From assembly GCF_963921235.1 (NCBI RefSeq), contig NC_086108.1, forward strand, positions 5,642,001 to 5,706,000: a stretch of 64,000 nt of DNA, in the 5' to 3' direction. Under the pieces are notes generated by a model. That model searched no databases and had not been told where the DNA came from. It worked only from the letters and a program-made list of their open reading frames with translations. The translations under genes were made by a program, and so were the position numbers. The DNA is from Mobula hypostoma. Lineage: Eukaryota. Each line of letters opens with the position of its first letter. Position 1 is the first letter of the stretch. Shown here one piece after another: positions 1 through 61,309 of this stretch.

Positions 1-924
1 TTTATGCCATCAGGTTGGAGCATGCACTGCCCTCAATGAGGTGCTGTACATCAAATAGAAAAACTCCATTGAAAAATGACAGGAGTCAGGGTGTAGCCTC
101 TGAACTCCTTGGGCTTACTGCAGACTCAATGGCATGACATAGTGAATAAGAAATGAAACTGAAAAATAAAAATAAACCCTGCAATTACCACATTGTTCTT
201 TTCACAAAGGAAATATGCATTGACACGTAATAACTTAAGTTTAATAAGTTTCCTGCAGGTCAATATTATAAGATTCCAACAAGTAGATACTATAGGCAAA
301 TAGTTCGTGTAAACCATTAGTATCTAGGTTAGTGTCTAATAAACTCAAAATTAACATTCTACTTCAGCCAAATCTTATTGATAGCTTTAGATCAGCTTCT
401 AAACAATATAACATCAACTTACAAGCAATGCATCTGCTGGGGGAAACAACAGGAAGGCTTTATATAGAAACTCCTTCCGCTCAGAACATAAATCTCTGGA
501 CTTCTGCCAGTCAGTATACTTTCTGACTTACTACTTCCTAATACAGATCTGAAACTGCTCTTAAAATAAAAGCTGTATGTGCTTATCACATAGAAAAGAA
601 ATGAATGTATTGCCCAAAGGATAGAACATAGCACATCGAACTTTGTCTGTGTTCTCAGGTGGATAAAGATCAACCCATGGTTACTATTTCAAGGAAAGCT
701 GTAACTTGATCGGTGTGTTTGATCAATGCCAGTTAAACAGAAATATTGAGTATTTGTTTTGCAGTTCATGAGGGCAAACTGACTGCGGCGTTCCCTGTGT
801 TAAAACAGTCCAACCTAACCCATTGAGCTCTAAGCTCACTAAACACTCAAGAAATTCTGAAGATGCTGGAAATCCAAGCAAGATACACAAAACTTTGGAG
901 GAAATCAGCAGGTCAGGCGGCGTA

Positions 925-1575
925 TTTCATTCGGAGTTTGAGGAGGTTTGGTTTGTCACCTAATACACTCACAGATTTCTACAGCTGCACCGTGAAGTGC
1001 ATTTGAACTGGCTGTATCACCAGCTGGGGTGGGGGGAGCTACCGCACGGGTTCGAAGCAAGCTGCAGAGAGATGTAAACTTAGTCAGCTTCATCATGGGC
1101 ACTAGCCTTCGAAATAGCCAACACATCTTCAAGGAGCGGTGCCTCAAAAAGGCAGCATCCATCATTAAGGACCTCCATCACCCAGGACATGCCCTCTTCT
1201 CATTGCTACCATCAGGGAGGAGGTACAGGAGCCTGAAGACACACACTCAATGATTCAGGAACAGCTTCTTCCCCTCTGCCTTCCAGATTTCTGAATGGAC
1301 ATTGAACCCATGAACACTACCTCGTCCTGACGAAGGGTCTCGGCCTGAAACATCGACTGCGCCTCTTCCTATAGATGCTGCTTGGCCTGCTGCGTTCACC
1401 AGCAACTTTGATGTGTGTTGCTTGAATTTCCAGCATCTGCAGAATTCCTGTTGTTTGCGTTTAAAAACACTACCTCACTACTTTTTTATTTCTATTATTA
1501 TGTATTGCACTGTACTGCTGCTGCAAAGTTAACAAATTTCTTGACATATGCCGGTGATAAACCTGATTCTGATTC
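925..1575 (+). mobile_element. Rex/L2-type LINE 3' fragment interrupted by a Penelope-derived terminal piece (about 1323-1460)
   Basis: C-terminal motif IIKDLHHPGHALFSLLPSGRRYRSLKTHT and an (ATTCTG)n tail. The short duplication AACACTACCTC flanks the inserted piece. Confidence 0.75.
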
Positions 1576-1861
1576 ATACTGTGGCTGTGGGATTCCCAAA
1601 GACCTATGGGTCGGTGGCTAACCAGGGTATTGATGCCATGAACATTAGCTTTTTACTACAGTACATTATAAACATCAACTACATCATCTTAAATTAACAT
1701 AAATTATACATAATACATTGCAATATTAACATATAAACATGGTGACATCAGTGCAAGTGGAGGGAAGCATAGTCCAAGGTAGAATTAGAGTTCTTCAGGT
1801 CAGTTCAGGATCCTGATGGTGGTTGGAAAAAGCTTTTGTTGAACCCTGAGCTGTGGGTCTT

Positions 1862-4800
1862 CATAAGACCATAAGACATAGGAGCAGAATTAGGTCATTT
1901 GGCCCATTGAGTCTGCTCCACCATTCAATCATGGCTGATCCTTTTATTTCCCCCTCCTCAGCCGTACTCCCCAGCCATCTCCCCATAACCTTTGATGCTG
2001 TGACCAATCAAGAAGCTATCAAGCTTTGACTTGACCTGGCCTCCACAGCTGCCTGTGGTAATAAATTCCACAAATTCACCACCCTCTGGCTAAAGAAGTT
2101 TCTCCGCATCCCTGTTTAAATTGGACACCCCTCTAACCTGTGGCTGTGTCCTCTTGTCAAGACTCCCCCCGCCGCCATAGGAAACATCCTTTCCACATCC
2201 ATCTAGGCCTTTCAACATTTGAAAGGTTTCAATGAGATCCCCCTCATCCCTCTAAATTCTAGCGAGTACAGACCCAGACCTATCAAACATTCCTCATATG
2301 ATAACCCTTTCATTCCTGAAATCATCCTAATGAACCTCCTCTGGACCCTCTCCAATGCCAGCACATCTTTTCTTAGGTGAGGAGCCCAAAACTGTTCATA
2401 ATACTCAAGGTGAGGCCTCACCAGTGCCTTATAAAGCCTCAGCATCACATCCCTGCTCTTGTATTCTAGACCTCTTGAAATGAATGCTAACATTGCATTT
2501 GCCTTCCTCACCACCAACTCTACCTACAAGTTAACCATTAGGGTGTTCTGCACAAGGACTCCCAAATCCTTTTGTATCTCAGATTTTTGGATTTTCTCCC
2601 CATTTAGATATTAGTCTACACATTTATTTCTACTACCAAAGTGCATGACCATGCAATTTCCAACATTGTATTTCATTTGCCATTCTCTTGCCCATTCTCC
2701 TAATCTGTCTAAATCCTTCTGCATCCTACCTGCTCTAACCATGCCAGTAACTTTCCTGTAATACCATGGGCTTTTAACTTGGTAAGCAGCCTCATGTACG
2801 GCACCTTGTCAAAGGCCTTCTGAAAGTCCAAATATACAACATCCACTGCATCCCCTTTATCTATCCTACATGTAATCTCCTCAGAATTCCAACAGATTTG
2901 TCAGGCAAGATTTTCCACTAAGGAAACCGTGCTGACTTTGTTCTATCTTGTCCTGTGCCACCAAGTACTCCATCACCTCATCCTTAACAATTCACTCCAA
3001 CATCTTCTCAACCACTGAGGTCAGGCTAACTGGTCTATAATTTCCTTTCTGCTGCCTTCCTCCTTTCTTAAGGAGTGGAGTAACATTTGAAAATCTCCAG
3101 TCCTCTGGCACCGTGCCAGAATTCAATGATTTTTGAAACATCATTACTAATGCCTCCACAATCTCTAACACTACATCTTTCAGAACCCTGGGGTTCAGTT
3201 CATCTGGTCCAGGTGACTTATGTACCCTTAGGTCTTTCAGCTTTTTGAGGACCTTCTCCCTTGTAATAGTAACTGCACTCACTTCTCTTCCCTCACACCC
3301 TTCAACATCTGGCACACTGCCAGTGTCTTCCCCAGTGAAGACTCATGCTAAATACTCATTTAGTTCATCAGCCATCTCCTCATTATTATTTCTCCAGCCT
3401 CATTTTCTAGTGGTCCTATATCCACTCTCATCTCTCTTTTGTTTTTTTGCATACTTGAAAAAGCTTTTACTATCCACTTTGATATTGTTTGCTGGCTTGC
3501 TTTCATATTTCACCGTTTCCCTCCTAATGATTCTTTTAGTTGCTCTCTGTAGGGTTTAAAAGCTTCACAATCCTCTATCTACCCGCTAATTTTTGCTTTG
3601 TTATATGCCCTCTCTTTTGTTTTTACATTGGCTTTAACTTCCCTTGTCAGCCATGGTTATACTATATTTCCACTTGCATATTTCTTTGTTTTTGGAATGC
3701 ATCTCTCCTGCACCTTCCTCATTTCCCCCTGAAACTCACGCCATTGCTGCTCTGCTGTCATCCCTGCCAGCATCTCCTTCCAATTTACTTTGGCCAGCTC
3801 CTCTCTCATACCACTGTAATTCCTTTACTCCACTGAAATACTGTTATATCAGACTTAACTTTCTCCATCTCAGATTTCAAGTTGAACTCAATCATATTGT
3901 GATCACTGCTTCCTAAGGGTTCCTTTACCTTAAGCTCCCTAATCACCTCCAGTTCATTACATAACGCCCAATCCGGTAAAGCTGATCCCGTAGCAGGCGC
4001 AACGACAAACTAAAAAGCCATCTCGTAGGTATTCAACAAACTCACTCTCTTCAGATCCATTTCCAACCTGATTTTCACAATCAAACTGCATGTTGAAATC
4101 TCCCATGACTATCATAACATTGCACTTTTGACAAGCCTTTTCTATTTCCCATTATAATGTGTAGTCCACATCCCAGCTACTGCTGGGATGCCTGTATATA
4201 ACTGCCATCAGGGTCCTTTTACCCTTTGCAGTTCCTTAACTCAACCCACAAGGATTCAACATCTTCTGATCCTATGTCACATCTTTCTACTGATTTGACA
4301 CCCCCTCTGCCTACCTTCCTATCACTCCAATATAACGTGTAACCTTGGACATTCAGCTCCCAACTACACCCATCCTTCAGTCATGATTCAGTGATGGCCA
4401 CAACATCATACCTGGCAATCTGTAATAGTGCAACAAGATCATCCACCTTATTTCTTATACTCCATGCATTGAGATATAACACTGAGTACTTCATTTGCTA
4501 CCCTTTTTGATTCTGCATTCCTAATGCACTGATACTCACCCTGCTGGCTGTAATTACGTCCTATCATCTGCCTGCCCTTCCTGACAGTCTGACTGCACAC
4601 TATCTTTGCATTTTTACCATCCATCCTATACTGAGTCCCTTCACTCTGGTTCCCACCCCTCTGCCAAATTATTTCAAACCCTCCCCAACAACTCTAACAG
4701 ACCTGCCCGTAACAATATTGGTTCCCTTCGGGTTCAGGTGAAACCCGTCACTTTTGTACAGGTCATACCTCCCCCTGAAGAGATCCCAATGATCCAAGAA

Positions 4801-5270
4801 CTTGAAGCCCTCCCTGCACTAGCTTCTCAGCCACACATTCATTTGCCAGATCATCCTGTTTCTACCCTCACTGGCACATGGCACAGGCAGCAATCCAGAA
4901 ATTACTACACTGGAAATCCTACTTCTCAGCTTTCTACCTAGCTCTCTAAAGTATCTTTCCCGGACCTCTTTGCTTTTCCTTCCTATGTCATTGGTACCAA
5001 TATGTACCAAGACATCTGGCTGCTCTCCCTCCCTCTTTAAAATGTTGTGGACGAGATCTGAGATGTCCCTGACCCTGGCACCTGGGAGGCAACATACCAT
5101 CCGGGTGTCCCGTTCACATCCACAGAACCTCCTGTCTGTTCCCTTGACTATTGAGTCCCCTATCACTACCACTCCCCTCTTCTCCCTCTTTCCCTACTGC
5201 ACCACGGACCCATGCTCAGTGCCAGTAACCCAGTCGCCATGGCATTCTCCTGGGAGGTCAACCCCCACAA
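1862..5270 (-). mobile_element. CR1 LINE, degraded, spanning ORF1 esterase to 3' tail
   Basis: ORF1 SGNH/GDSL-like motifs VIGDSIV...HIGTNDIG (4819-5172). ORF2 pieces KSPGPDELNPRVLK...NYRPVSLTSVV and LYKALVRPHLEY. CATAAGAC tail repeats at 1862. Confidence 0.9.
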
Positions 5271-5704
5271 CAGAACACGGGGTTCAGGTTAGATCCTGAG
5301 AAATATGGACACACAGGAACCTGTAACCTTTATCAGATCTCCCCTCAGCTTCCAACAGTCTTTCATTGATTCTGTTATGGTTATTAGTCTATGGATTTAT
5401 CGAGTATGCCCACAAAAAAATGAATGTCAGGGTTGTGTACGGTGACATATATGAACTTTGATAATAAATTCACTTTGAACACTTCAGACAAAACAACCCG
5501 TCTGTCAAACCTTTCCTTCTTGCTTAGACCCTCTGCAAAGGAAAAAGTTAAATGTGATTCCTATTTGGTATGCGCTAAAGTGGAAGTCTGTCAGACAAGA
5601 TGGTGCAGGTTCCTGTACCCGCTGCCTGATGGCAGCAAAGAGAAGTGGCACGTCCCGGGCACTGAGGGTGCCTGATGGTGATGATGAATATATTCTGCAA
5701 TTAT

Positions 5705-6215
5705 CATGGAGTCACAGAGCACTACAACACAGAAACAGGCCCTTCGGCCCATCTAGTCTATGCCATTCTGTCTAGCCCCATCAACTTGCACTGGGACCAT
5801 AGCCCTCCATACCCCTTCCATCACGTACTTATCCAACCTTCTCTTAAACCAGGGGTTGCCAGTCTGGGGTCCACGGAGCCCTCAGTCAATGGTAGGGATC
5901 CATAGCATAAAAGGTTGGGAACCCCTGCCTTAAATGTTGAAACCAAACCACATCCAACATTTCTCTAGGCACTCGTTCCACATTCTCACCATCCTCTGAG
6001 TGAAGGAATTCCCCTTCAGGTTCCCCTTAAGCACTTCACCTTTCACCCTTAACCCATGACCTCTAGTTCCAGTCTCATCCAGCCTCAGTGGAAAAAGCCT
6101 GCTTGCATTTACCCTATCGATACCCCTCGATATTTTGTATACCTCTATCAAATCTCCCCTTATTCTCCTTCGCTCCAAGGAATAAAGTCCTAACCTATTT
6201 GACCTTTCTCTGTAA
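5705..6215 (-). mobile_element. CR1 3' fragment
   Basis: RRIRGDLIEVYKI...TRGHGLRV...FTQRMVRMWN C-terminal motif. Confidence 0.8.
5850..5927. mobile_element. Small hAT (Charlie-like) MITE
   Basis: TIRs CAGGGGTT...AACCCCTG with a degenerate 8-bp TSD tcttaaac/ccttaaat. Related pieces occur near 8450, 49268 and 59320. Confidence 0.7.
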
Positions 6216-6475
6216 GTCAGATCAGATTCAGAATCAGGTTTAATGTCACCAGCATGTGTCGTGAAATTTGTTGTTTTTCAGCACCAGTACAGTGCAATGC
6301 ATAGTACTAAAAAAAACTATAAATTGCAATCAGAAATATATGTTTAAAAATTAAATTAAATTAATAGTGCAAAAAGGGAGCAAAGAACATTATTTCTTTA
6401 TTGAGATACAGCATGGAATAAGACCTTTTGGCCCTTCAAGCCACCCCCAACTTAACCCTAGCCCAATCATAAAGC

Positions 6476-7630
6476 AATAAGACAAAGGAGCAGAAGCCGG
6501 CCATTCGGCCCATCGAGTCTGCTCTGCCATTTTATCATGAGCTGATCCATTCTCCCATTTAGTCCCATTCACCCGCCTTCTCACCATAACCTTTGATGCC
6601 CTGGCTACTCAGATACCTATCAATCTCTGCCTTAAATACACCCAATGACTTGGCCTCCACTGCTGCCCGTGGCAACAAATTCCATAGATTCACCACCCTC
6701 CGACTAAAAAAATTTCTTCGCATTTCTGTTCTGAATGGGCACCCTTCAATCCCTAAGTCATGCCCTCTCCTACTAGACTCCCCCATCATGGGAAACAACT
6801 TTGCCACATCCACTCTGTCCATGCCTTTCAACATTCGAAATGTTTCTGTGAGGTCTCCCCTCATTCTTCTAAACTCCAAGGAATACAGTCCAAGAGCAGA
6901 CAAATGTTCCTCATATGTTAACCCTCTCATTCCCGGAATCATTCTAGTGAATCTTCTCTGTACCCTCTCCAACGTCAGCACATCCTTTCTTAAATAAGGA
7001 GACCAAAACTGCCTACAGTACTCCAAGTGAGGTCTCACCAGCACCTTATAGAGCCTCAACATCACATCCCTGCTCCTATACTCTATTCCTCTAGAAATGA
7101 GTGCCAACATTGCATTTGCCTTCTTCACTACCGACTCAACCTGGAGGTTAACCTTAAGGGTATCCTGTACGAGGACTCTCAAATCCCGTTGCATCTCAGA
7201 ACTTTGAATTCTTTCGCCATTTAAATAATAGTCTGCCCGTTTATTTCTTCTGCCAAAATGCATAACCATACACTTTCCAACATTGTACTTCATTTGCCGC
7301 TTCTCTGCCCATTCATCCAATCTATCCAAGTCTCTCTGCAGACTCTCTGTTTCCTCAGCACTACTGGCCCCTCCACGTACCTTCGTATCGTCAAACTTAG
7401 CCACAAAGCCATCTATTCCATAATCCAAATCGTTGATGTACAATGTAAAAAGAAGCGGCCGCAACACTGATCCCTGCGGAACACCACTGGTAACTGGCAG
7501 CCAACCAGAATAGGATCGCTTTATTCCCACTCTCTGTTTCCTGACAATCAGCCAACGCTCTATCCACGTATGTAACTTTCCCGTAATTCCATGGGCTCTT
7601 ATCTTGTTAAGTAGCCTCCTGTGTGGCACA
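6476..7630 (-). mobile_element. CR1 RT C-terminal half, relatively intact
   Basis: ORF 6559-7749 includes SGVPQGSVL, KF-DDTK and LVRPHLEYC. Its N-terminal part is read-through from an adjacent SINE. Confidence 0.9.
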
Positions 7631-10600
7631 GGACAATCACAGGACAACTTACAATGCCCAACTAACCAACCAACTGGTACGTCTTTGGACTGTGGGAGGA
7701 AACCAGAGCACCTGGTGGAAACCCACGCGGTCATGGGGAGAATGGACAAATTCCTTACAGGCAGCGGCAGGAATTGAAACTGGGTTGAGGATACTGTAAA
7801 GTGTTGTGCTAACCACTACACCACCGTGCCACCCCAAATACTGAGAAAGAGCCCAATGGGCCCAATGTCCATTCAGAAATCTGACGGCAGAGGGGAAGAA
7901 GCTGTTCCTGAATTGTTGATTTTGTGTTTTCAGGCTCCTGTACCTCCTTCCTGATGGTAGCAATGAGAAGAGGGCATGGCCTGAGTGATGGGGGTCTTTT
8001 AGATGGACACCACCATTTTGAGACTTTGCCTTTTGAAGGTGTATTGCATGTTGCCCACGATGGAGCTGGCTGAGTTTACAACCCTCTGCGGCTTTTTCCG
8101 AGCCCACGCAGTGGCTCCTCCGTGCCAGACAGGGATGCAACCGGTTCGAACGCTCTCCACGGCACATCTGTAGAAACTTGTGAGAAATCAAGTCCTGGAA
8201 ACATCCTTGTGAATTTTCTCCATTTCCTTTGTACTACTTCGATGTACTGTTAATGCTTGGCATGAACTGTCTCTCTCTCTCTGACATCATGAAATAGATA
8301 CCTATACAAAATTTGGTGCACAGCCCCTGTCCTGAGAGGAAGGGCACTGTCCCGGCTCCTGAACACATCCCTGCCTTTGGACACCATAGTAGCTCAGCAG
8401 CTGGCGAGACACTATGACAGCTCAGAAAACTGGAGAGTGGAGTTTAATGGTTGGGGTCCATGGCATAAAAAAGGCATAACCCCTGCCCTGTAAGGAGTTC
8501 CTGTATGTCATAGGAACATAGAAAACCTACAGCACAATACAGGCCCTTCGGCCCACAATGTTGTGCCAAACATGTACTTACTTTAGAAATTACCTAAGGT
8601 TACCCATAGCCCTCAATTTTTCTGAGCCCCATGTACCTATCCAGGAGTCTCTTAAAAGACCCTATCGTATCCGCCTCCACCACTGTCACCAGCAGCCCAT
8701 TCCACGCACTCACCACTCTCTGCATAAAAAACTTACCCCTGACATCTCCTCTGTACCTACTTCTAAACACCTTAAAACTGTGCCCTCTCGTGCTAGCCAT
8801 TTCAGCCCTGTGGAAAAAGCCTCTGACTATCCACACGATCAATGTCTCTCATCTTCTTATGTCCTCCACATGCAACGCATGGGTTTTCCCAGGTGCTCCG
8901 GTTTCCTTCCACAGTCCAAAGACGTACTGCATAGGCTAACTGGTCATTGTAATTTGTCCTGTGATTAGGCTGGGGTTAAATCGGGGTTGTCAGGGGTTGC
9001 TGTGGCAACACTACTTGAAGGGCTGGGAGCAGACTCTGCACTGTAAATAATCTCTCCTAAACACCCGCCAACATGTCCTGGAGCTCCATCATGGGCACTA
9101 ACTTCCGTGGTATCCAGGACATCTTCAAGGAGCGATGCCTCAGAAAGACAGCATCCATCAATACGGACCCCCATCACAAGACATGTCCTCTTCTCATTGT
9201 TACCATCAGGGAGGAGATACAGGAGCCTGAAGACACACACTCAGCGATTCAGGAACAGCTTCTTCCCCTCTGCCATCCGATTTCTGAATGGACATTGAAC
9301 CCATGAACACTACCTCACTATTTTTTTATTCCTATTTTTGCACTACTTATTTAATTTAACCATTTAATACATATACATACTTACTGTAATTCACAATTTT
9401 TTCTGCAAAGGCAACAAATTTCATGACTTCTGTCGGTAATATTGAACCTGATTCTGAGTTGAGAGGAGACATCTGGATTTTGTGACAGGTACAAGTCTAG
9501 TCACTATTGAAGTTCAAGTTTATTGTCATCTGACTGCACGCACATACAACCGAATGAAACAACATTCCTCTGGACCTACATCTCACACACAGCACATAAA
9601 ACAAAATATCACCATAAATAAATTAATAAAATATCATTCAAAATGCATGTAGTGTGCAGCACAGGTAAACAGTAAGCAGCTCATTGTCCTAGTGACGAGA
9701 CCTCGGTGGTGGCAGGGTATTCATTTATCTCACAGCCTGAAGGAAGAAACCAGCGAAGATTCTCCCAATCCTCGGTGCTAAGCACAGGCAAATGTTGCCC
9801 AAAGTGCCGAGCACCACACCCAAAGTGATTGCGTTCCTGGTGACGAATTAAAAAGAACACTCACTGCTGGAGGAACTTGACGGTTCGGGGGCACCTGCAG
9901 AGAGAAATGGACAACTGGCGTCTCAGGTCAAGACCCTTCATTAGGACCAGTCTCTCCTCCCAGAGATGCTGCTTGGATCCTCCAGCAGATTGTCTGCTGC
10001 CCCAGATCTCACCGTGTGCACACACAACATCTGTCTCCAATGTTCCAGTGAATTGACATCTTTTTAATGATTTTTTAAAAAATTTAGCGATACAGGGTGG
10101 ACGAGCTGCACCACCCTCAGAAACTCACCTATTAAAGCCTCACCTAATCTCAGGACAATTTACAATGACAAAATAACCAACTGATCAGTAGGTCTTTGGA
10201 CTGCAGGAGGAAACCAGAGCACCCAGAGGAAACACACACGCTTTATAGGGAGGACGTACTAACTCTTTTCAAATCTTATTATTATTATTATTCAAAATTA
10301 ACAAGAGTACATCAAAGTAAGCAACACTTCCAATGTCTCCAGAAAAAAAAATTATTTTAAAGATTGAAAACATTTTGGTGACAAAAAAATAAGAGGGAAA
10401 AAACCCTACTAAGCAAGAAAAAATGAGAAAACAAGGAACAGAATTAGGCCATTTGGCCCATCGAGTCTGCTCTGGTATTTCATCACGGCCGATCCATTTT
10501 CCCTCTCAGCCTCAGTCTCCTGTCTTCTCCCCGTATCCCTTCATGCCCCGACTAATCAAGACTCTGTCGACATCTGTTTACAGTCTGTAATTGCTGACAG

Positions 10601-10747
10601 ACAGCAGCAGGAATTGAACTCTGAACTTTAGAACCCCCCCTCCCCCCGCTGTAATAACACCATGCTAACCACAACACTGCTCCTGGCACCCACCCAACCT
10701 GCCTTCTTGTTTGCTGAACTGAATCTCCCCAGACGCCCAGCCTGTAC

Positions 10748-10751
<4 letters not shown>

Positions 10752-10788
<37 letters not shown>

Positions 10789-11148
10789 TCACACTCACAC
10801 CAACACACATACATAGACACACACCTACACATTGATGCACACTCACACACACTAATACACGCTCACACAGACACCCACCGCACACACACACACCGATACA
10901 CCCCCCCACAGACACACACAGACAGACGCACATACACACAAACATACACACACACACACTCACACACACTCACACTCACACACACACCCCCAAACACACA
11001 CCGATACACACTCACACAGTCACCCCCCTGCACAAACACACACCGATACACACTCACACAGACACCCCCTGCAGACGCACACCCACACAGACAAACACAC
11101 ATACAGACACACACACACAGTCACCCCCCCCACCCGCACACACACACA
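10752..11148. repeat. Compound (CA)n microsatellite
   Basis: Visible CA-rich tract with CCGATA and CACT variants. Confidence 0.95.
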
Positions 11149-11169
11149 AAATTGAAACTGGCATAAATT

Positions 11170-12300
11170 GATGTCAATTTCACCTGACGTCACGCACCAA
11201 ACCCACAGGGCATCCGTTTGCTCTCCACAGACCCTGCCCGACATAATGTGTCTTTTTCTTTGATTGCAGTTTTCAATTATAGCGGTAGTCGAAATCTCTC
11301 GCCCGAGCCCGCTACAATGTTGTGACACTCCGCCAAAGGGAATGATACCAGAGTGTCCATTGTTCAAGACAGCTTGGCCACATTGTAATCGTTATTTTCC
11401 CGAACAACCGCAACAATGAATCCTCACAGTTATACTGTATGTGTAACATTGCTTCGTCCCGGGACTCTCCCTGTCAACATAACTGAAGGAAGAAAACGGA
11501 ATAAAAATGAAACAATAGATTTACCGTGTGCACGTCCCGGATCTCCCCGCTCGCTGTCCCGTACACCCCGATTACCCCGTTGCCTGGTGTCCCGGAGCCG
11601 GAGCCTGTCCCCAGGCAAACGAACCGGTTGCTACACGGGATCCAGAGGCACCCGAACGGGAGGAGAGGCAGTTTGCGATGGGACACCGACACCAAGCGAG
11701 GTTTGCGCCTGTTTGACATCCTGCGGGGACCCTAACCGGAGTGGAAGACGAGGGAGGTGAAAAATCACTGAGTGATCCTTTTTTTGAGGGAGAAAAAAGA
11801 TTTAATTCCAATAACGCAGAACACGTTTTGAGCACAACTGATTGAGATTGTCTACGTGCGATTCTATTTAAAGATTTTCGATTCCTCTGCCTCGCTCCAA
11901 ACTAACGACAGACAAAAAATATATATAACTTAAAACATTGCGATGAAGTGCGGATCCCCGATCTGACGTGGGAAGGGTTTAGCAGGGCCGATCCCAGGCC
12001 GTGGCTCCGACACCCAGAACTGAAGCAGAAAGTGAAAGTTTGAGGGAGGTGGAGTCAGCCCCCGGGCTTCCGCCCCGCTGTCCCGGGACACTGACCCCGC
12101 CTGGCCGACCGGGGAACAGTCCGCACTCGGGCCATTCTCCCTATGGCTCCGGCAGCAGCCCGCCCCCGGGGGTCGCCCGAAAGACCCTTTGCTGCTCCAT
12201 GGAAGCGCGGGGCTCGGGTTACGTAGCCGATGAGCTAATTGAATGGCGCACAGCAAGCTCCCAGCGGAGGGGGATGGGCTTGCTCTCAGCCCTGCCCTGC
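11170..12300. promoter_or_regulatory. CpG island / promoter of the WDR92-like gene
   Basis: CpG and GC density is high against a CpG-depleted background. It contains a full CRE palindrome TGACGTCA at 11185-11192 and overlaps the ATG exon. Confidence 0.7.
11525..11719 (-). CDS. First coding exon of a divergent WDR92/DNAAF10-like WD40 gene (65 codons, phase-0 donor)
   Basis: ATG at 11719 (aggATG) opens MSNRRKPRLVSVSHRKLPLLPFGCLWIPCSNRFVCLG...GVIGVYGTASGEIRDVHT, ending at ACG|gtaaat. It aligns colinearly with the WDR92 N-terminus as I recall it (MS...KP...F-C-W-PCS--FV--G...GVI--Y----G). It lies in a CpG island. Confidence 0.75.
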
Positions 12301-12307
12301 ATGTTAG

Positions 12308-12572
12308 TTGTGCGTGTGTGTGTTTTGTGTTTTATATGTGTGTGTGTTTCAGTGAGTGTGAATCTGTTTTTTTTTGTGTTTCTCTGTGTGTGTTTTGTTT
12401 CAGTGTGTTAGTTTGTGTTATTTATGTTTCTGTGTGTGTGTGTGTGTTTGTGTTTCAGTGAGTGTGAATCTGTTTTTTTTGTGTTTCTCTGTGTGTGTTT
12501 TGTTTCAGTGTGTGTGTGTGTGTGTGTGGTGTGTGTGTGTCTATGTCTGTTTTTCTGTTTCAGTGTGTTTGT
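12308..12572. repeat. Compound (TG)n / T-rich repeat with internal duplication
   Basis: TG tracts, with the block gtttcagtgagtgtgaatctgtttttttt present twice. Confidence 0.9.
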
Positions 12573-38855: not shown

Positions 38856-39974
38856 CTCTGAACTGTAGTCTTCTTTCCCAGAACCAGGATAATAGGAAGC
38901 AGTTGACATTGCTGTACTCTTGGTTAAGGCTCGATGAGACTGAAGTGAGAGGAAGGGAGTTTGACGCCACCACAATGAGACACTAAGAGGCTAGAATGTG
39001 CATACTCCGTAGAGTGGTTGTCCACCCTGTTCAGCAGCCGGCCTACGAGGGCACAGAGTCTGGGGTTGTGACAACTAATAAGGAAGTGCTGATATAACCA
39101 GAACAAGTTGTTAACTTGGCAACATTAACCAAAGTTCAAGGTTCAAAGTAAATTTATTATCAAAATACATATATGTCGCCATATACCACTCTGAGATTCA
39201 CTTTTCTTGTGCGCATACTCAATAAATCTATAGAATAACAACTGTAACAGAATCAGTAAAAGACGGCACCAACTTGGGCGTTCAATCAGAGTGCAGAAGA
39301 CAACAAACTGTGCAAACACAAAAATAAAATAATAATAATAATAAATAAATAAGCAATAAATATCAAGAACATGAGATGAAGAGACCTTGAAAGTGAGTCC
39401 ATTGGCTGTGGAAACACTTTAATGATGAGGCAAGTGAAGTTGAGTGAAGTTACCCCCGGTGGTTGAGGGGTAGTAACTGTTCCTGAACCTGGTGGTGTGA
39501 AAATCCTGAGGCTCCTGTATCTTCTTCCTGATGGCAGCAGTGAGAAGACAGCTTGTCCTGGGTAGTGGGGGTCTCTGATGACGGATGCGGTGACAGTGTT
39601 TCTCGATCATTGGGAAGGCTTTACCTGTGATGGACTGGGCCATATCCATTACTTTTTTTTTTAACGTGTAGTTTAGTTGGACATATAAGGAACTTAAGTC
39701 AATTATATTTCACTTGGACTGAGGATAGATCAGGGAAATACACGATATGATCAGCTAAAACAATCAAATGTTTCCATATGACCTGCCAGGTACAATTGGA
39801 CAGGAGTCTTTGTAGAAGGGTAACATTATTGGAGGCAAAGATAGGGCAGACAGTAATTTTTCCCAGGATAGAAATGTCAAAAATGAGAGGGCATGCATTT
39901 AAGATGAGAGGGGAAAAGGCCATAAGACATAGGTGCAGAATAAGGCCATTCAGCCCAGCTGGGTATGCTATTCC

Positions 39975-40615
39975 ATCATTGAGAAAACTAAAGAAATTTG
40001 GCCTGCCCCCTAAAACCCTCACTAATTTTTATAGATGCTCCGTAGAAAGCATTCTTCTAGGGTGCATCACAACCTGGTATGGAAGTTGTCCTGTCCAAGA
40101 CCGAAAGAAGCTGCAGAAGATCGTGAACACGGCGCAGCACATCACACAAACCAATCTTCCGTCCGTGGACTCACTTTACACCGCACGCTGTCGGAGCAGT
40201 GCTGCCAGGATAATCAAGGACACGACCCAACCAGCCAACACACTTTTCGTCCCTCTTCCCTCCGGGAGAAGGCTCAGGAGCTTGAAGACTCGTACGGTCA
40301 GATTTGGGAACAGCTTCTTTCCAACTGTGATAAGACTGCTGAACGGATCCTGACCCGGATCTGGGCCGTACCCTCCAAATATCCAGACCTGCCTCTCGGT
40401 TTTTTTGCATTACCTTACTTTCCATTTTTCTATTTTCTATTTATGATTTATAATTTAAAATTTTAATATTTACTAATTTTTACTATTTTTAATATTTAAT
40501 ATTTGTAATCCAGGGAGTGGGAAGCGCAGAATTAAATAATGCTGTGATGATTGTACGTTCTAGTACCAATTGTTTGGCGACAATAAAGTATAAAGTATAA
40601 AAATGTATAAAGTAT
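39975..40615 (+). mobile_element. Rex/L2-type LINE 3' fragment nested in a CR1 tail
   Basis: Open frame LRKLKKFGLPPKTLTNFYRC...PLPSGRRLRS and an (AAAGTAT)n tail. Confidence 0.8.
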
Positions 40616-42697: not shown

Positions 42698-44218
42698 CCT
42701 GCCCTCCTCACAGTCCCCCACCCTGCTCTCATGACTATATCCCTTCCCCACACGAAACCACCATGGTGGGCTTCACAGCTGAGCAGGTGAGAAGACAGCT
42801 GAAACGTCTCAACCCAAGCAAGGCTGCAGGACTGGATGGTGTCAGTACCAGGGTGCTCAAAGCCTGTGCCCCTCAGCTATGTGGAGTACTTCACCATGTA
42901 TTCAACCTGAGCCTGAGTCTCCGGAGGGTTCCTGTACTGTGGAAGACGTCCTGCCTCGTCCCTGTGCCGAAGACGCCGCGCCCCAGCGGCCTCAATGACT
43001 ACAGACCGGTGGCATTGACCTCTCATCATGAAGACCCTGGAGAGACTTGTTCTGGAGCTGCTCCGGCCTATGGTCAGGCCACACTTAGATCGCCTCCAGT
43101 TCGCCTACCAGCCCCGACTAGGAGTTGAAGATGCCATCGTCTACCTGCTGAACCGTGTCTACGCCCAACTGGACAAGCCAGCGAGCACTGTGAGAGTCAT
43201 GTTTTTTGACTTCTCCAGTGCGTTCAACACCATCCGCCCTGCTCTGCTGGGGGAGAAACTGACAGCGATGCAGGTGGATGCTTCCCTGGTATCATGGATT
43301 CTTGATTACCTGACTGGCAGACCACAGTACGTGTGCTTGCAACACTGTGTGTCCGACAGAGTGATCAGCAGCACTGGGGCTCCACAGGGGACTGTCTTGT
43401 CTCCCTTTCTCTTCACCATTAACACCTCAGACTTCAACTACTGCACAGAGCCTTGTCATCTTCAGAAGTTTTCGGATGACTCTGCCATAGTGGGATGCAT
43501 CAGCAAGGGAGATGAGGCTGAGTACAGGGCTACGGTAGGAAACTTTGTCACATGGTGTGAGCAGAATTATCTGCAGCTTAATGTGAAAAAGACTAAGGAG
43601 CTGGTGGTAGACCTGAGGAGAGCTAAGGTACCGGTGACCCCTGTTTCCATCCAGGGGGTCAGTGTGGACATGGTGGAGGATTACAAATACCTGGGGATAC
43701 GAATTGACAATAGACTGGACTGGTCAAAGAACACTGAGGCTGTCTACAAGAAGGGTCAGAGCCGTCTCTATTTCCTGAGGAGACTGAGGTCCTTTAACAT
43801 CTGCCGGACGATGCTGAGGATGTTCTACAAGTCTGTGGTGGCCAGTGCTATCTTGTTTGCTGTTGTGTGCTGGGGCAGCAGGCTGAGGGTAGCAGACACC
43901 AACAGAATCAACAAACTCATTCGTAAGGCCAGTGATGTTGTGGGGATGGAACTGGACTCCCTGACGATGGTGTCTGACGGAGCGTCATAGGAAGTCATTC
44001 CTGCCTGTGGCCATCAAACTTTACAACTCCTCCCTTGGAGGGTCAGACACCCTGAGCCAATAGGCTGGTCCTGGACTTAATTCATAATTTACAGGCATAA
44101 TTTACATATTACTATTTAACTATTTATGGTTCTATTACTATTTATTATTTATGGTGCAACTGTAACGAAAACCAATTTGCCCCGGGATCAATAAAGTATG
44201 ACTATGACTATGACTATG
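42698..44218 (+). mobile_element. Rex1/Babar LINE RT, young 5'-truncated copy
   Basis: KAAGLDGVS...YRPVALTS, then after one frameshift FFDFSSAFNTI, TGAPQGTVLSP and KFSDDS. (TATGAC)n tail. Confidence 0.9.
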
Positions 44219-52268: not shown

Positions 52269-54559
52269 CTGCTCCTTCTTCCTGATGGCAGCAGTGAGAA
52301 GCGAGAATCACCATGGTGGTGGAAGTCCTTGTTGATGGATCCTGCTTGCCCGTGACTGTGCTCCATGTAGGTGTGCTCAATGGGGGGGAGGGTTTTACCT
52401 GTGACTGGCTGGGCTGTAGCCCAGTTTCTGTAGACGTTTCTGTTCCTGTGACAGCGCTTCGTGTAGATGCTGTGACCACACGTTATGTTTCCAGTACTTT
52501 CTATTTTAGTTTCAGATTTGTACTATCTGTGAGGCTGTTTTTTTAAAAAAAATTACTGTTAATTTCTTTATTTGTGAGCATGAGTGAACACTTTTGTTTT
52601 ACTCAAGTGATCAGTTGACCTGAAAGTGTGTGTAAGTAGACCGATAAAGAAAGAGATGGGGAAGAGAATGACAGAACAGGTCAGAACGTGTTACACATCC
52701 AACAATCTTAGTTTCCGGTGGCAAGAGGGCACTTGCCCTTGGATACGAGAACATAGAACCTAACGTACAAGAACCAGCTGTATACAGAACATTACAGCAT
52801 AGTACAGGCCCTTCAGCCCACAACATTGTGCTGACCTTTTAACCTACCCTTAAGATCAATTTAACCCTCCCCTCCTACACAGCCCAGTGTTTTTCTTTCA
52901 CCCATGTGCCTATCTAATTTGTTCATCAGTTCTGTGTCATTTCATATATTGTGGGCGATCAAAGTCTTTCCGTGACTATGATTGTTCTTGGCAAATTTTT
53001 CTACAGAAATGGTTTGCCATTGCCTTCTTTTGAGCAGTGTCTTTAACAGACGGGTGACCCCGGCCATTATCAATACTCTTCAGAGATTGTCTGCCTGGCG
53101 TCAGTGGTCACATAAACAGGACTGGCTGCTCCCATGGCTTCATGTGACCCTGATCTGTGGGGGTGGGGGGCTAAGCAGGTGCTACCCCTTGCCCAGGCTA
53201 GCGGAGGGAAGGAGTACCTTCCACCTCCATTGGTAGAGATGTTCCTCCACCTCATCCGTTGCTGTGCTGTAGTGCCCTACAACTCCTCTGCCACGGGATA
53301 CTCGAGGGGAACTTCTTTGCTCTCAGGGTGGTGAGAGTGTGGAAGGATGCAAGTCCAGGTGTGGGTCAATGGGATAGGCAGAGCAACAGTTTGGCATGGA
53401 CTAGATGGGCTGAAGGGCTGTCACACTCTACAATGTCTCCACCCTGGGAAAAATATTCTATCTACAACCTGTAGAGAGACCCAGTTAGGCTAGATAGTTA
53501 TTCCATTGAAAACAGCTCTGTTTGATTTTCCTGAACTGTTAAATCACCATTTGAGTTTTACAACTTGAAATCTGGAATAATGGTATAAGGAAATTTTAGT
53601 AGCAAGGGAGGAATTTGGTTTGAATTGTAGAGTTGTAGCAGAATCAAATCTCCCCTCCTCATTGGCCACTCTAGTGGCATAGTGGATAAAGCTGCTGCCT
53701 CAGAGACGAAGAAACCCAGGTTAGCCCCTGCCTCCTGCACTGTCTGTGTGGAGTTTGCATGTTGCACATTCCCCCCCACCTCCCCACGATCCTCTGGGTG
53801 ATCCAGTCCCCCCCCCCCACAAGGTTAACTGGTCGCTGTAAATTGCCTGCCGTATGTAGAGGAGTGGATGGGAGTGTGGGATGGGGTGGGTTGCTGCGAG
53901 GGTCAGCATTGTGTAGATGGGCCCAAAGCTTGATTATGGTAAAGGTAAGATAGAATGGTTTGGGAGATACGTAGATTGGGAGGCCGCTCCTTTGCTTCTT
54001 CTGGCCACAAAAAGCATAATCTCCCAGTGGCCATCCATCTCTCATTCCAACAGGTCAGTCCATGGCCTGCTCTAGTGCCACAACCAGGCCACACTCAAGT
54101 TGGAGGAGCAACACATTTCATTCTGTCTGGGTAGCATCCCACCTGATGGATTTCTCAAACTTCCAGGAATGCTCCCCACCACCCCTCACTTCACCATTTC
54201 CCATCCCCTTTTTCCTCTCTCACCTCCCTCTGATGCTCCCCCCTTTTCTTTCTTCCATGGCCTCCTATCCTCACTTATTAGATTCCCCCCTTAAGTCAAC
54301 TTCCCAGCTCTTTATTTCACCCCCCCACCCGGCTTCACCTATCCTCTACCCTCCCCCCACCTTTTAAATCCACTCCTCATCTTTTTTTTTCACTCCAGCC
54401 CTGCTGAAGAAGGGTCTTGGTCTGAAAAATCGACTCTGCGCTTTTCCAAGACGCTGCCTGGCCCGCTTGAGTTCCTCCAGCATTTTGTGTTTCGCTTAGA
54501 GTGACGAGGACTGGCTTTTCCCAGAAAATATTGTCAATAAAATCAGGGAGAGGTGCAGC

Positions 54560-55020
54560 TTTAAGAAAATCACTGCGTGAAGAAAATCCCGATTGTTTGG
54601 AGTCTCAGGACACGAGAGCCCCCGTTTTCATTAAAGGGACGGGAAGGTGACCGCTTTTCGGTAGTGGGCGCGGCCCCGAGATACGGAAGGCGGGGTTTGC
54701 TCGGCTTCCACGTGGGTGGACGGGACCCAAACAGTCCGGTTAAAAGTGGCAGCGACCAGACGGAGGAAGGGCTGCGAGAGTGCGGGCAAAGCAAGTCTCA
54801 AGTGCCTGTCAATTCTTTCCTCTGGCGATAGCGGAGCCTGACGCACGCTGCAGTCAGGGTCGGTGAATCACGGCGTAAAGTCGCAGCCAAACTTCTCTGC
54901 TGCAAGTGACAAGACCAGGAAGAAAGTTTGAAAACTGTCAGCGGGCGAACAGCGTGTTCCGAGATCTCTCTCTCTCTCTCTCTCTTCCCCCTCCCTCCAC
55001 AACATCAACCCCTCCAGCTG
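54560..55020 (+). promoter_or_regulatory. Promoter-like CpG-rich segment and probable 5' UTR
   Basis: GC box AAGGCGGGG 54687-54695, E-box CCACGTGG 54708-54715 and TATA-like TTAAAA 54740-54745. The sequence is non-repetitive and CpG-rich, and stays intermittently so to about 59300. Confidence 0.55.
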
Positions 55021-55024
55021 CAGC

Positions 55025-55111
55025 ATGTCGCCCCTCTCTCTCATCCTCCTGACCATAGAACTCTTCGGCTTCTCCACGCCCTCGAAGCCGCCTCGATTCG
55101 ACCGGACCCTG
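55025..55111 (+). CDS. Candidate first coding exon with signal-peptide-like sequence (gene unidentified)
   Basis: agcATG opens MSPLSLILLTIELFGFSTPSKPPRFDRTL, followed by a strong donor CTG|gtaagc, downstream of promoter-like motifs. No homolog recognised. Confidence 0.4.
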
Positions 55112-59787: not shown

Positions 59788-60370
59788 TGTCTGTGTGTCT
59801 CTGTGTGTGAGTGTGTGTGTGTGTGTGTGTGTGAGTGTGTGTGTCTCTGTGTCACTGTGTGTGTGTGTGTGTGTCTGGGTGTGTGTCTGTGTCTGTGTGT
59901 GAGTGTGTGTGTCTCTGTGTCACTGTGTGTGTGTCTGGGTGTGTGTGTGTGTGTCTGGGTGTGTGTGTGTGTCTGTGTGTGTGTGTGTGTCTGTGTGTGA
60001 GTGTGTGTGTCTCTGTGTCACTGTGTGTGTGTGTGTGTCTGGGTGTGTGTCTGTGTCTGTGTGTGAGTGTGTGTGTCTCTGTGTCACTGTGTGTGTGTCT
60101 GGGTGTGTGTGTGTGTGTCTGGGTGTGTGTGTGTGTCTGTGTGTGAGTGTGTGTGTCTCTGTGTCACTGTGTGTGTGTGTGTCTGGGTGTGTGTGTGTGT
60201 CTGTGTGTGAGTGTGTGTGTCTCTGTGTCACTGTGTGTGTGTGTGTGTCTGGGTGTGTGTCTGTGTCTGTGTGTGAGTGTGTGTGTCTCTGTGTCACTGT
60301 GTGTGTGTGTGTGTCTGGGTGTGTGTGTGTGTCTGTGTGTGAGTGTGTGTGTCTCTGTGTCACTGTGTGT

Positions 60371-60416
<46 letters not shown>
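59788..60416. repeat. Higher-order compound TG repeat
   Basis: About 8 variable units of GAGTGTGTGTGTCTCTGTGTCACT(GT)nCTGGGT. Confidence 0.95.
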
Positions 60417-60420
<4 letters not shown>

Positions 60421-61309
60421 TGTCCCTGATGGTAGCGTGGAGAAGAGCTATGTACTGGATGACGGGGTACCCAATGATGAATGCCGTCTATTGAAGGTGT
60501 CGATGCTGGGCAGTCTAGCGCCCGTGAAGGAACTGGCTGAGCTTCCATCTCTGCAGTTTCTGCAGCCAGGTGGAATGCTCTTCACGGCACACCTGTAGAA
60601 ATTTGCTAGACTCGCTGTAAGTGACATAACCAAATCTCTTCAAGCTCCAAATGCTGGTGGCGCGACTTGTTCAGAGGTTCGTTTAGTATCAGAGAATGTA
60701 TAAGACGTGAAATTCTTGCTCTTCACATACATCCACAAAACAAGAATGCCCATAGAATGAGTGATAGGAACATCTAACACCAACCCCTCTTCATAATTAC
60801 ATCAACATGTGTTGCCCAGGATAGGTCTTCTGAAACGTTGACACCCTCTGCTTCCCCACCTGGCCTTTTGTCCTATCAGATTTCATGTCCTTCAGCTCTT
60901 TGCCTCTTCTATCTATCACCTCCCAGCTCCTCAGAACAAGGTGACTTGTTCCATGCTTTGTGTTTTCAGTTGAACATTGGAGACGTGCTTTGCTGGCACT
61001 ACTATGGCTGCCGACACAACAACCAAAATATTTCACTAACATGAGAAAGTCTCTCAGCTGCCTTCTCCCCGTAGCCCTTTGTTTACTGACTAATCCAGAA
61101 CTGGCTAAAGAAGTTCCTCCTGATCTCCTTTCTAAATGAAACCATGTCTTTTGGTGTTAGACTCTCCCCACCATGGGAAACATCCTCTCCACATCCATTC
61201 TGCCAAGGCCTTTCAACATTCGATACGTTTCAATGAATTTCCCCCAGCCGTCGTTCTTCTGAATTCCAGTGAGTATAGGCCATGAGGCATCACCCCCCTC
61301 GTATGATAA

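What the first reader, a model, noticed from the sequence alone, without database searches (positions are those of the whole stretch)
11525..11719. Highly diverged WDR92/DNAAF10-like first exon, possibly an unannotated paralog
Seen: a 65-codon ATG-to-GT exon in a CpG island. Knowledge: WDR92 (R2TP/prefoldin-like co-chaperone, axonemal dynein assembly) begins MSAFEKP...FDCKWVPCSAKFVTMG...TGVIQLYEIQHG in human, from memory. It is normally very conserved and lies head-to-head with PNO1. This exon keeps only the skeleton residues, adds a GSGSGTPG loop, and I see no PNO1-like exon on the opposite strand. Inference: a fast-evolving duplicate rather than the ortholog.
Basis: partly seen in the sequence, partly recalled or inferred. 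Interest (0 to 1): 0.7.

Follow-up and report, generated by a model that had tools for sequence, protein, structure and literature searches.

The report
Ancient second WDR92 of sharks, rays
Sharks and rays keep a spliced, intact, very old second copy of the cilia-motor assembly gene WDR92/DNAAF10, already listed in public annotation but apparently unstudied, in which one half of the protein ring is preserved while the other half, including the family's hallmark protrusion, has been remodelled.

Summary
The exon is real (minus strand, ATG 11719, GT donor after 11525, CpG island). It is not unannotated: its 65 aa equal the N-terminus of RefSeq 'DNAAF10-like' of Mobula birostris, and the little-skate paper's supplement lists it as Wdr92-1. 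Contigs from 4 of 4 runs splice it to exon 2. It is a true paralog: found in 17 shark and ray species, 10 of which also show a canonical DNAAF10 on another chromosome, at 56-61% identity in the 8 pairs computed. The duplication predates the chimaera-elasmobranch split (AU p 0.0007-0.026). In skate the two copies lie on paralogous chromosomes, which points to a vertebrate whole-genome duplication; 1R or 2R is unresolved. No bony-vertebrate or chimaera copy was found. Blades 2-4 keep 86 of 89 conserved positions; elsewhere 47 of 124 changed, and the two protrusion loops have relaxed. Most likely it is a variant R2TP adaptor keeping one partner surface (inferred, untested). A canonical copy in Mobula itself was not shown.

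The parts
11525..11719 (-). Coding part of exon 1 of the DNAAF10-like gene (65 codons; strand 7d and most of blade 1 of the propeller)
   Evidence: Translation; 100% identical to residues 1-65 of XP_072130577.1; hit to 3I2N; secondary structure of the model
11582..11605 (-). GSGSGTPG loop (codons 39-46) between strands b and c of blade 1; 4 residues longer than in canonical WDR92 here, 2 longer in three of the sharks shown
   Evidence: Alignments; pLDDT below 50 at residues 42-44
11720..12245 (-). Unspliced 5' leader of exon 1, about 500 nt, with three upstream ATGs (12200, 12135, 11938; ORFs of 19, 26 and 2 codons)
   Evidence: Contigs reach 12217 (X4, X10), 12245 (X6) and 12017 (X9); contigs cannot show the true start; upstream ATG scan
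11523..11524 (-). GT splice donor of intron 1 (phase 0)
   Evidence: Sequence; in 4 of 4 runs the contig leaves the window at 11525 and continues with letters that encode residues 66-75 of P0002 (compared)
1..11524 (-). Part of intron 1 (over 11.5 kb, rich in LINE fragments and microsatellites); exon 2 lies outside the window
   Evidence: tblastn of 5 full-length paralogs found only exon 1; ORF list
11450..12300 (.). CpG island / likely promoter
   Evidence: GC 0.565, CpG obs/exp 0.88; the skate ortholog's promoter is a bait in the H3K4me3 HiChIP table of developing fin (PMC10115646 supplement)
55025..55111 (+). Neighbouring gene: candidate first coding exon (29 codons, signal-peptide-like, phase-0 GT donor) of the SMOC-family gene that flanks the paralog in skate; identity inferred, not shown
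   Evidence: Sequence and CpG island; Smoc1-2 bait at Leri_38C 3.23-3.24 Mb beside Wdr92-1 at 3.22-3.23 Mb; no database hit for the peptide

Best explanation
This is the first exon of an intact, transcribed WDR92/DNAAF10 paralog that arose in an early vertebrate whole-genome duplication, survives in sharks and rays, and was lost (or is not annotated) in bony vertebrates and chimaeras. SHOWN: spliced gene, second locus, clade, age older than crown chondrichthyans, seven-bladed fold, asymmetric divergence. INFERRED (about 0.75): origin by genome duplication; chromosome context favours 1R, the free tree favours the gnathostome stem. INFERRED (about 0.45): how it works. Canonical WDR92 is a cytoplasmic adaptor that bridges R2TP (RPAP3/SPAG1 C-terminal domain) and the prefoldin-like module for axonemal dynein folding. 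The paralog keeps the blade 2-4 surface almost unchanged, has let the two-loop protrusion (blades 5 and 6) decay, and has fixed a new surface on strand 7d, blade 1 and blade 7. I read it as a variant adaptor that still docks on one old partner (my guess is the RPAP3/SPAG1 scaffold), has dropped the partner that needs the protrusion, and recruits something else. It would then not be a back-up dynein assembly factor.
For: Splicing in 4 of 4 runs from 4 studies. Full-length 360-363 aa models in 17 species. Same-species pairs 56-61% identical. Paralog clade 100/100 with stem 0.82; canonical chondrichthyan clade including Callorhinchus 100/99 and excluding the paralog. Duplication after the chimaera split rejected in 5 of 5 AU runs, p 0.0007-0.026. 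At 6 columns derived in canonical chondrichthyan WDR92 the paralog majority never has the derived residue and at 3 has the bony/outgroup one. Skate paralog is on the 12,364,586-bp chromosome Leri_38C, the canonical gene on the 75,805,852-bp Leri_8C. These chromosomes share Dact, Hnrnpl, Hif/Epas and Sertad family members (some placed by gene-id block). Dact3 and Dact2 split at 1R (PMC4236578). Model pLDDT 85.9, Foldseek TM 0.88 to 3I2N, E 1.5e-45. Blades 2-4: 3 of 89 canonical-conserved columns changed; elsewhere 47 of 124 (Fisher p 3e-10; regions chosen after seeing the data). Protrusion loops: 7 of 12 and 8 of 9 changed, and only 1 of 13 and 4 of 23 columns conserved within the paralog clade; blade 1 has 33 of 51 conserved within it. 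Exon 1 against run X9: 5 synonymous and 4 replacement changes, dN/dS about 0.27.
Against: No canonical DNAAF10 of Mobula or six other carrier species was among the listed hits (120 of 1162 shown), and no genome is held, so the second locus in this animal is inferred. Local gene order is not shared between the two loci, so an old single-gene duplication and transposition is not excluded. The free tree groups the paralog with gnathostomes against cyclostomes (92/94, not starred), against the 1R reading of the synteny; AU tests cannot separate chondrichthyan stem, 2R and 1R on all columns. The long stem invites long-branch artefacts. The dN/dS count is small (Fisher p 0.054). PMC4831875 notes that the beta24/25 loop is already the most variable region among orthologs. 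None of the passages I read maps a WDR92 partner to a surface, so the partner assignment is a guess. Tissue of expression is unknown.
Confidence: 0.65

Rival explanations
1. A subfunctionalised copy with the same biochemical role: a tissue-restricted (for example sperm-flagellum) DNAAF10 that still bridges R2TP-like complexes and prefoldins; the changes reflect relaxed selection in a redundant gene.
For: Fold kept; 163 of 213 canonical-conserved columns kept; faster rate in 28 of 28 pairs; R2TP-like components are known to diversify by paralogy (PMC12633730).
Against: Changes are not spread evenly: 3 of 89 in blades 2-4 against 47 of 124 elsewhere, and they remove residues invariant in all 44 canonical rows, from molluscs to mammals. 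The skate promoter is listed among H3K4me3 baits in developing fin, which does not suggest testis restriction.
Confidence: 0.3
2. Origin by an old single-gene or segmental duplication in the stem of jawed vertebrates or of cartilaginous fishes, landing by chance on a paralogous microchromosome, rather than by whole-genome duplication.
For: Sister position to all canonical chondrichthyan WDR92 is not rejected in 4 of 5 AU runs (p 0.08-0.36); immediate neighbours differ between the loci; needs fewer losses.
Against: The skate copy sits on a chromosome that shares several gene families with the canonical gene's chromosome, beside an extra Smoc gene. This placement is never the best tree and is rejected on core columns under LG+G4 (p 0.043).
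Confidence: 0.22
3. A decoy or antagonist: the paralog binds one partner through blades 2-4 but cannot bridge, and so dampens canonical WDR92.
For: One surface kept and the protrusion relaxed; three upstream ATGs could keep its level low.
Against: Blade 1, strand 7d and blade 7 carry changed but clade-fixed residues (33 of 51, 10 of 17 and 24 of 37 columns conserved within the clade), which suggests a new positive function. There are no binding or expression data.
Confidence: 0.15
4. It is the diverged ortholog, or an orphan pseudo-exon.
For: A canonical copy was not listed for Mobula itself; no downstream exon in the window.
Against: Both genes occur in 10 species including two skates; spliced contigs in 4 of 4 runs; intact 361-aa model.
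Confidence: 0.02

Closest known systems
WDR92 / DNAAF10 / Monad (human structure PDB 3I2N; canonical shark and skate genes such as XP_055494830.1, XP_078086520.1)
   Same: Seven-bladed WD40 propeller of about 360 aa (TM 0.88 to 3I2N); blades 2-4 nearly unchanged; nearest family by sequence and fold.
   Different: 56-61% identity to the same species' canonical gene, below the 73% between skate canonical and a mollusc ortholog (258 of 354); protrusion loops degenerate; 2-4 residue insertion in blade 1; new C-terminal tail; different chromosome and neighbours (Ccdc97, Smoc1-2, not Pno1).
RefSeq 'dynein axonemal assembly factor 10-like' (XP_072130577.1 and relatives) and 'Wdr92-1' of the little-skate annotation (PMC10115646 supplement)
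   Different: These are automatic labels. My searches found no paper on its origin or function.
Ohnologs retained in chondrichthyans and lost in bony fishes (19 cases counted in PMC10115646, for example wnt6b and cspg5 among the retained ones)
   Same: Same pattern of retention and loss; location on a microchromosome; faster evolution, as described for beta segments.
   Different: The gene list behind the 19 cases was not in the supplement text I could see, so I cannot say whether Wdr92 is among them.
Paralog-based R2TP variants (R2SP/R2SD: SPAG1 for RPAP3, PIH1D2 or DNAAF2 for PIH1D1)
   Same: A co-chaperone system diversified by paralogous subunits.
   Different: The passages I read describe such variants for the scaffold and PIH subunits, not for the WDR92 adaptor.

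Membership tests
WDR92/DNAAF10 family | Seven-bladed WD40 propeller closest to WDR92 | tested here: met
   AlphaFold2 pLDDT 85.9, 28 strands; Foldseek top hit 3I2N, E 1.5e-45, next hit 1.4e-16
WDR92/DNAAF10 family | Sequence homology over the whole length, nested among animal WDR92 | tested here: met
   51-63% identity to canonical WDR92 in the listed hits; nests among vertebrate WDR92
Canonical WDR92 ortholog | Groups with the canonical gene of its own lineage | tested here: not met
   Separate clade 100/100; canonical chondrichthyan clade 100/99 excludes it; both genes in 10 species
Canonical WDR92 ortholog | Conserved two-loop protrusion (beta20/21 and beta24/25, PMC4831875) | tested here: not met
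   7 of 12 and 8 of 9 canonical-conserved columns changed; residues 297-311 pLDDT below 50; my canonical control fold failed
   Skate neighbours are Ccdc97 and Smoc1-2; Pno1 falls in the Leri_8C gene-id block with Wdr92-2; no hit in window ORFs
Dynein axonemal assembly factor (function) | Binds RPAP3/SPAG1 C-terminal domain and prefoldin-like subunits; needed for dynein heavy-chain stability | not testable with these tools
   No partner sequence was available from session results, so no complex was predicted; no functional data
Vertebrate WGD ohnolog | Duplication older than crown gnathostome lineages | tested here: inconclusive
   Older than the chimaera split (AU rejects in 5 of 5 runs); chondrichthyan stem, gnathostome stem and vertebrate stem not separated
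Vertebrate WGD ohnolog | Copies lie on paralogous chromosomes | tested here: met
   Skate Leri_8C and Leri_38C share Dact, Hnrnpl, Hif/Epas and Sertad families; one species only, some genes placed by id block
Vertebrate WGD ohnolog | Single pro-ortholog on the matching amphioxus linkage group | not testable with these tools
   No eukaryote genome search available
Processed pseudogene / orphan exon | No introns, broken frame or no transcript | tested here: not met
   Intron over 11.5 kb, splicing in 4 of 4 runs, intact models

The most novel reading that the evidence does not exclude
A WDR92 ohnolog from the first vertebrate genome duplication, kept only in sharks and rays, that became an alternative adaptor of the R2TP/PAQosome co-chaperone: it keeps one docking face (blades 2-4), has abandoned the protrusion, and uses a new fixed face (strand 7d, blades 1 and 7) to bring a different client class to HSP90. 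It would be a natural half-mutant that maps which WDR92 surface binds RPAP3/SPAG1 and which binds prefoldins or dynein.
Probability: 0.25. Interest if true: 0.65.

Novelty: new variant of a known kind. Interest (0 to 1): 0.42.

Why it matters
WDR92 is conserved at 58% between human and Chlamydomonas, and that conservation is ascribed to several partners covering much of its surface (PMC6727741). The passages I read do not say which surface binds which partner. A paralog that kept blades 2-4 and lost the protrusion gives a ready test of that map, and it asks whether sharks and rays have an extra R2TP variant. As evolution it is one more case of a known pattern, old duplicates kept in cartilaginous fishes, so surprise is moderate. 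The gene is already in databases.

Tried and rejected
X linkage: small contig sizes suggested the elasmobranch X. Rejected because the carrier contigs are 115-118 Mb in myliobatiforms, where X1/X2 are 45-73 Mb, and 12, 30 or 42 Mb in others, where X is 16.4-28.8 Mb (bioRxiv 2025.02.26.637739); the skate X is chr40 there, not chr38. Pfam found nothing for the 65-aa exon. Search for orthologs outside elasmobranchs: exon 1 returned 7 hits among 66 candidates, all shark or ray, one of them unnamed but in a skate cluster. Residues 225-361 returned 22 hits, the top 9 paralogs and then canonical-type proteins. Of 150 cluster representatives, 149 scored higher on the canonical profile and one preferred the paralog profile by 3 bits, against 150-286 bits for true paralogs. 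These are protein-database negatives, not genome searches. P0046 (62% identity) is a teleost-type canonical model with an internal duplication and was left out of the trees. The canonical control fold, run without an alignment, failed (pLDDT 39.7). No RNA holder was on record as RNA; contig depth was not used as expression. The 29-codon exon at 55025 had no Atlas hit above 0.85, and no Kazal-like motif was found downstream. A crude X-box pattern found no site near the promoter; not informative. Whale-shark paper supplements: 0 hits for WDR92 in files 1-12 of 24. A paper search for the 14q/19q13/11q13 paralogon returned nothing. No complex prediction was run, for lack of a partner sequence.

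Full report
Observation. The finding lies on the minus strand. Bases 11719 to 11525 give 65 codons from ATG without a stop, followed by a GT donor in phase 0. The region 11525-12245 is a CpG island (GC 0.57, CpG obs/exp 0.93; window 0.46 and 0.38). Against all PDB sequences the peptide has one hit up to E=10, human WDR92 (3I2N, E 3.5e-4), with a 4-residue insertion at the GSGSGTPG loop. Pfam gave nothing. tblastn with five full-length relatives found only this exon in the window, so intron 1 is longer than 11.5 kb.

It is annotated and spliced. The peptide is 100% identical to the N-terminus of XP_072130577.1, 'dynein axonemal assembly factor 10-like', Mobula birostris, 361 aa. I laid 4 of 13 listed runs, one from each of the 4 studies, on 11160-12300. 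Each gave one contig that stops at 11525 and continues with letters encoding residues 66-75 of that protein (compared). The contigs extend upstream to 12017-12245 without a joint, so exon 1 has a leader of about 500 nt with three short upstream ORFs. The runs are not on record as RNA, but the exon-exon junction is hard to explain otherwise. Run X9 differs in the coding part by 5 synonymous and 4 replacement changes, dN/dS about 0.27 (Fisher p 0.054).

It is a paralog. Cluster listings give the DNAAF10-like gene in 17 shark and ray species. Ten of these also show a canonical DNAAF10 on a different contig: two skates and eight sharks. In 8 same-species pairs identity is 56-61%. Seven carriers, Mobula among them, had no canonical protein among the 120 of 1162 hits listed, and no genome is held, so the second locus in this animal is inferred from relatives. 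Conversely, Callorhinchus, two Scyliorhinus species, Stegostoma and Rhinoraja showed a canonical protein but no paralog in my listings; this may be loss or annotation. In a 61-sequence tree (LG+C20+F+G4; P0046 left out as a mis-joined model) the paralogs form a clade at 100/100 on a stem of 0.82 changes per column, and the canonical chondrichthyan genes, Callorhinchus included, form another at 100/99. After the stem the paralog still runs 2.2 times faster than the canonical gene (mean p-distance 0.156 against 0.071; higher in 28 of 28 pairs), yet 79-99% identity across sharks and rays shows constraint.

Age. Nine placements were tested on 24 sequences under five model and column settings. A duplication after the chimaera-elasmobranch split was rejected in 5 of 5 (p-AU 0.0007-0.026). 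The best tree was sister to all gnathostome canonical genes in three runs and sister to all vertebrate ones in the two core-column runs; the chondrichthyan stem was rejected in only one. At six columns where canonical chondrichthyan WDR92 is derived, the paralog majority never has the derived residue and at three has the outgroup residue, which also argues against gene conversion in the conserved blades. Columns that separate gnathostomes from invertebrates split 6 gnathostome-like, 3 invertebrate-like and 6 neither. The free tree places the paralog with gnathostomes against cyclostomes at 92/94, unstarred. Three word-seeded searches and one full profile search found no ortholog outside elasmobranchs; these are database negatives.

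Chromosome context. The skate paralog's contig is 12,364,586 bp and the canonical gene's 75,805,852 bp. These equal Leri_38C and Leri_8C in supplement file 2 of the little-skate genome paper (PMC10115646). That file lists 'Wdr92-1' as a HiChIP bait at Leri_38C 3.22-3.23 Mb, between Ccdc97 (3.19-3.20) and Smoc1-2 (3.23-3.24), and 'Wdr92-2' in the gene-id block of Leri_8C together with Pno1. I read places 1-25 and 35-124 of 217 for Leri_38C, plus term searches. Of 23 other named genes seen there, 13 carry names of human 19q13 genes (human locations recalled). Leri_8C and Leri_38C share families: Dact2 and Dact3, Hnrnpl-2 and -3, Epas1 and Hif1a-2, Sertad4 and Sertad1. Dact3, Hnrnpl-2 and Epas1 are placed only by ids that fall between coordinate-anchored genes. 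Leri_8 is a candidate segment of ancestral linkage group A in the paper's table, where LER38 is not listed. PMC4236578 reports that Dact1/3 and Dact2/4 descend from the two products of 1R; Dact1 is on Leri_9C. If both WDR92 genes stayed on their segments, they split at 1R. The tree leans to a later split. I leave 1R against 2R open and put a genome-duplication origin at about 0.75. In the window, a 29-codon signal-peptide-like exon at 55025-55111 on the + strand, in a second CpG island, fits the Smoc neighbour; this identity is inferred from skate order and recalled SMOC exon layout, and no search confirmed it.

Structure. AlphaFold2 with 54 sequences gives a propeller with pLDDT 85.9 and 28 strands; residues 42-44 and 297-311 fall below 50. 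The alignment included canonical sequences, and my canonical control failed, so low confidence in the loop is not by itself a difference. Foldseek ranks 3I2N first (TM 0.88, E 1.5e-45). Of 213 columns conserved in at least 90% of 44 canonical rows, the paralog majority changes 50. Blades 2-4 change 3 of 89; the rest changes 47 of 124 (Fisher p 3e-10; regions follow blade limits but were chosen after seeing the data). WDR92 has one large protrusion formed by the beta20/21 and beta24/25 loops (PMC4831875). By strand count these are residues 244-256 and 293-315 here: 7 of 12 and 8 of 9 conserved columns are changed, and only 1 of 13 and 4 of 23 columns are conserved within the paralog clade. That is relaxation. 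Blade 1, strand 7d and blade 7 are changed but largely fixed within the clade (33 of 51, 10 of 17, 24 of 37). That looks like a new constrained surface. The same paper notes that the beta24/25 loop varies most among orthologs, but its flanking residues are invariant in my canonical set.

How it most likely works. Canonical WDR92 binds the RPAP3 C-terminal domain and links R2TP to the prefoldin-like module for axonemal dynein heavy-chain assembly (PMC6727741, PMC6821370, PMC12633730, PMC13153604, PMC13284507). None of these passages maps a partner to a surface. I infer that the paralog keeps one docking face, has lost the partner that needs the protrusion, and has gained another, so it acts as a variant adaptor (about 0.45). 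Rivals are a tissue-restricted copy with the old function (0.3) and a decoy (0.15). Binding, tissue and phenotype are untested.

Comparison with what is known, and verdict. It belongs to the WDR92 family by sequence and fold but fails the tests for the canonical ortholog. The gene is in RefSeq and in one paper's supplement as an automatic label. Searches for WDR92 with paralog (32 papers, 25 listed), WDR92 with shark (1, unrelated by its listing) and DNAAF10 with elasmobranch (0) found no study of it; most subscription papers are not in the library. Retention of old duplicates in cartilaginous fishes is a described pattern (19 cases counted in PMC10115646); the list of those genes was not in the text I could see, the file was cut when stored and supplement file 1 could not be read, so Wdr92 may be among them. 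What I saw of each paper: bioRxiv 2025.02.26.637739, parts 2-4 of 7 and passages, tables not held; PMC12318234, passages; PMC10115646, passages, part 1 of supplement file 2 and searches in it; PMC8455134, a search of supplement files 1-12 of 24; the others, passages only. Verdict: a real, old, unstudied paralog with a clear half-and-half pattern of divergence; a new variant of a known kind; interest 0.42.

Noticed in passing
window 54500-55200, exon 55025-55111 (+): Second CpG island (GC 0.54, obs/exp 0.96) with a 29-codon signal-peptide-like exon and GT donor; likely the first coding exon of an extra SMOC-family gene (skate 'Smoc1-2', on Leri_38C beside Wdr92-1, while Smoc1-1 is on Leri_9C). 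It may be another retained duplicate. Identity not confirmed.
   Followed up: partly
window 11720-12245 (-): Long first-exon leader with three upstream ATGs (12200, 12135, 11938). The bases just before the main ATG also resemble a splice acceptor, so an alternative upstream exon is possible; the four contigs showed no joint.
   Followed up: partly
window 11705-11713 (-), codons 3-5: Both Mobula species have a basic N-terminal stretch (two extra arginines) where the other rays and sharks shown have Ser/Cys-Pro or Ser-Leu; 3 of the 4 replacement changes against run X9 fall here.
   Followed up: no
P0002 vs P0009, residue 294 (outside the window): Isoforms X1 and X2 differ by one serine at the start of the degenerate loop; one-residue isoform pairs recur in several sharks and rays, suggesting a conserved tandem splice acceptor.
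   Followed up: no
window 43019-43987 (+) and 39751-40350 (+): Retroelement ORFs hit Pfam RVT_1 and also ALKBH8_N (PF09004) above its cut-off; probably LINE-derived matches rather than ALKBH8 exons.
   Followed up: no
Protein listings: No paralog protein appeared for Scyliorhinus (two species), Stegostoma, Rhinoraja or Callorhinchus, and no canonical protein for Mobula, Hypanus, Hemitrygon, Pristis, Pristiophorus or Heterodontus; may be listing limits, annotation gaps or real losses.
   Followed up: partly
PMC10115646 supplement, Leri_38C: Skate chromosome 38 is missing from the paper's table of ancestral segments; its gene content suggests the unfilled beta partner of LER9 in linkage group A (my inference).
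   Followed up: partly
window 10750-11150, 12310-12560, 59800-60500: Long CA/TG microsatellite tracts flank the promoter island on both sides, with another near 60 kb; 42% of the window is self-similar repeat.
   Followed up: no
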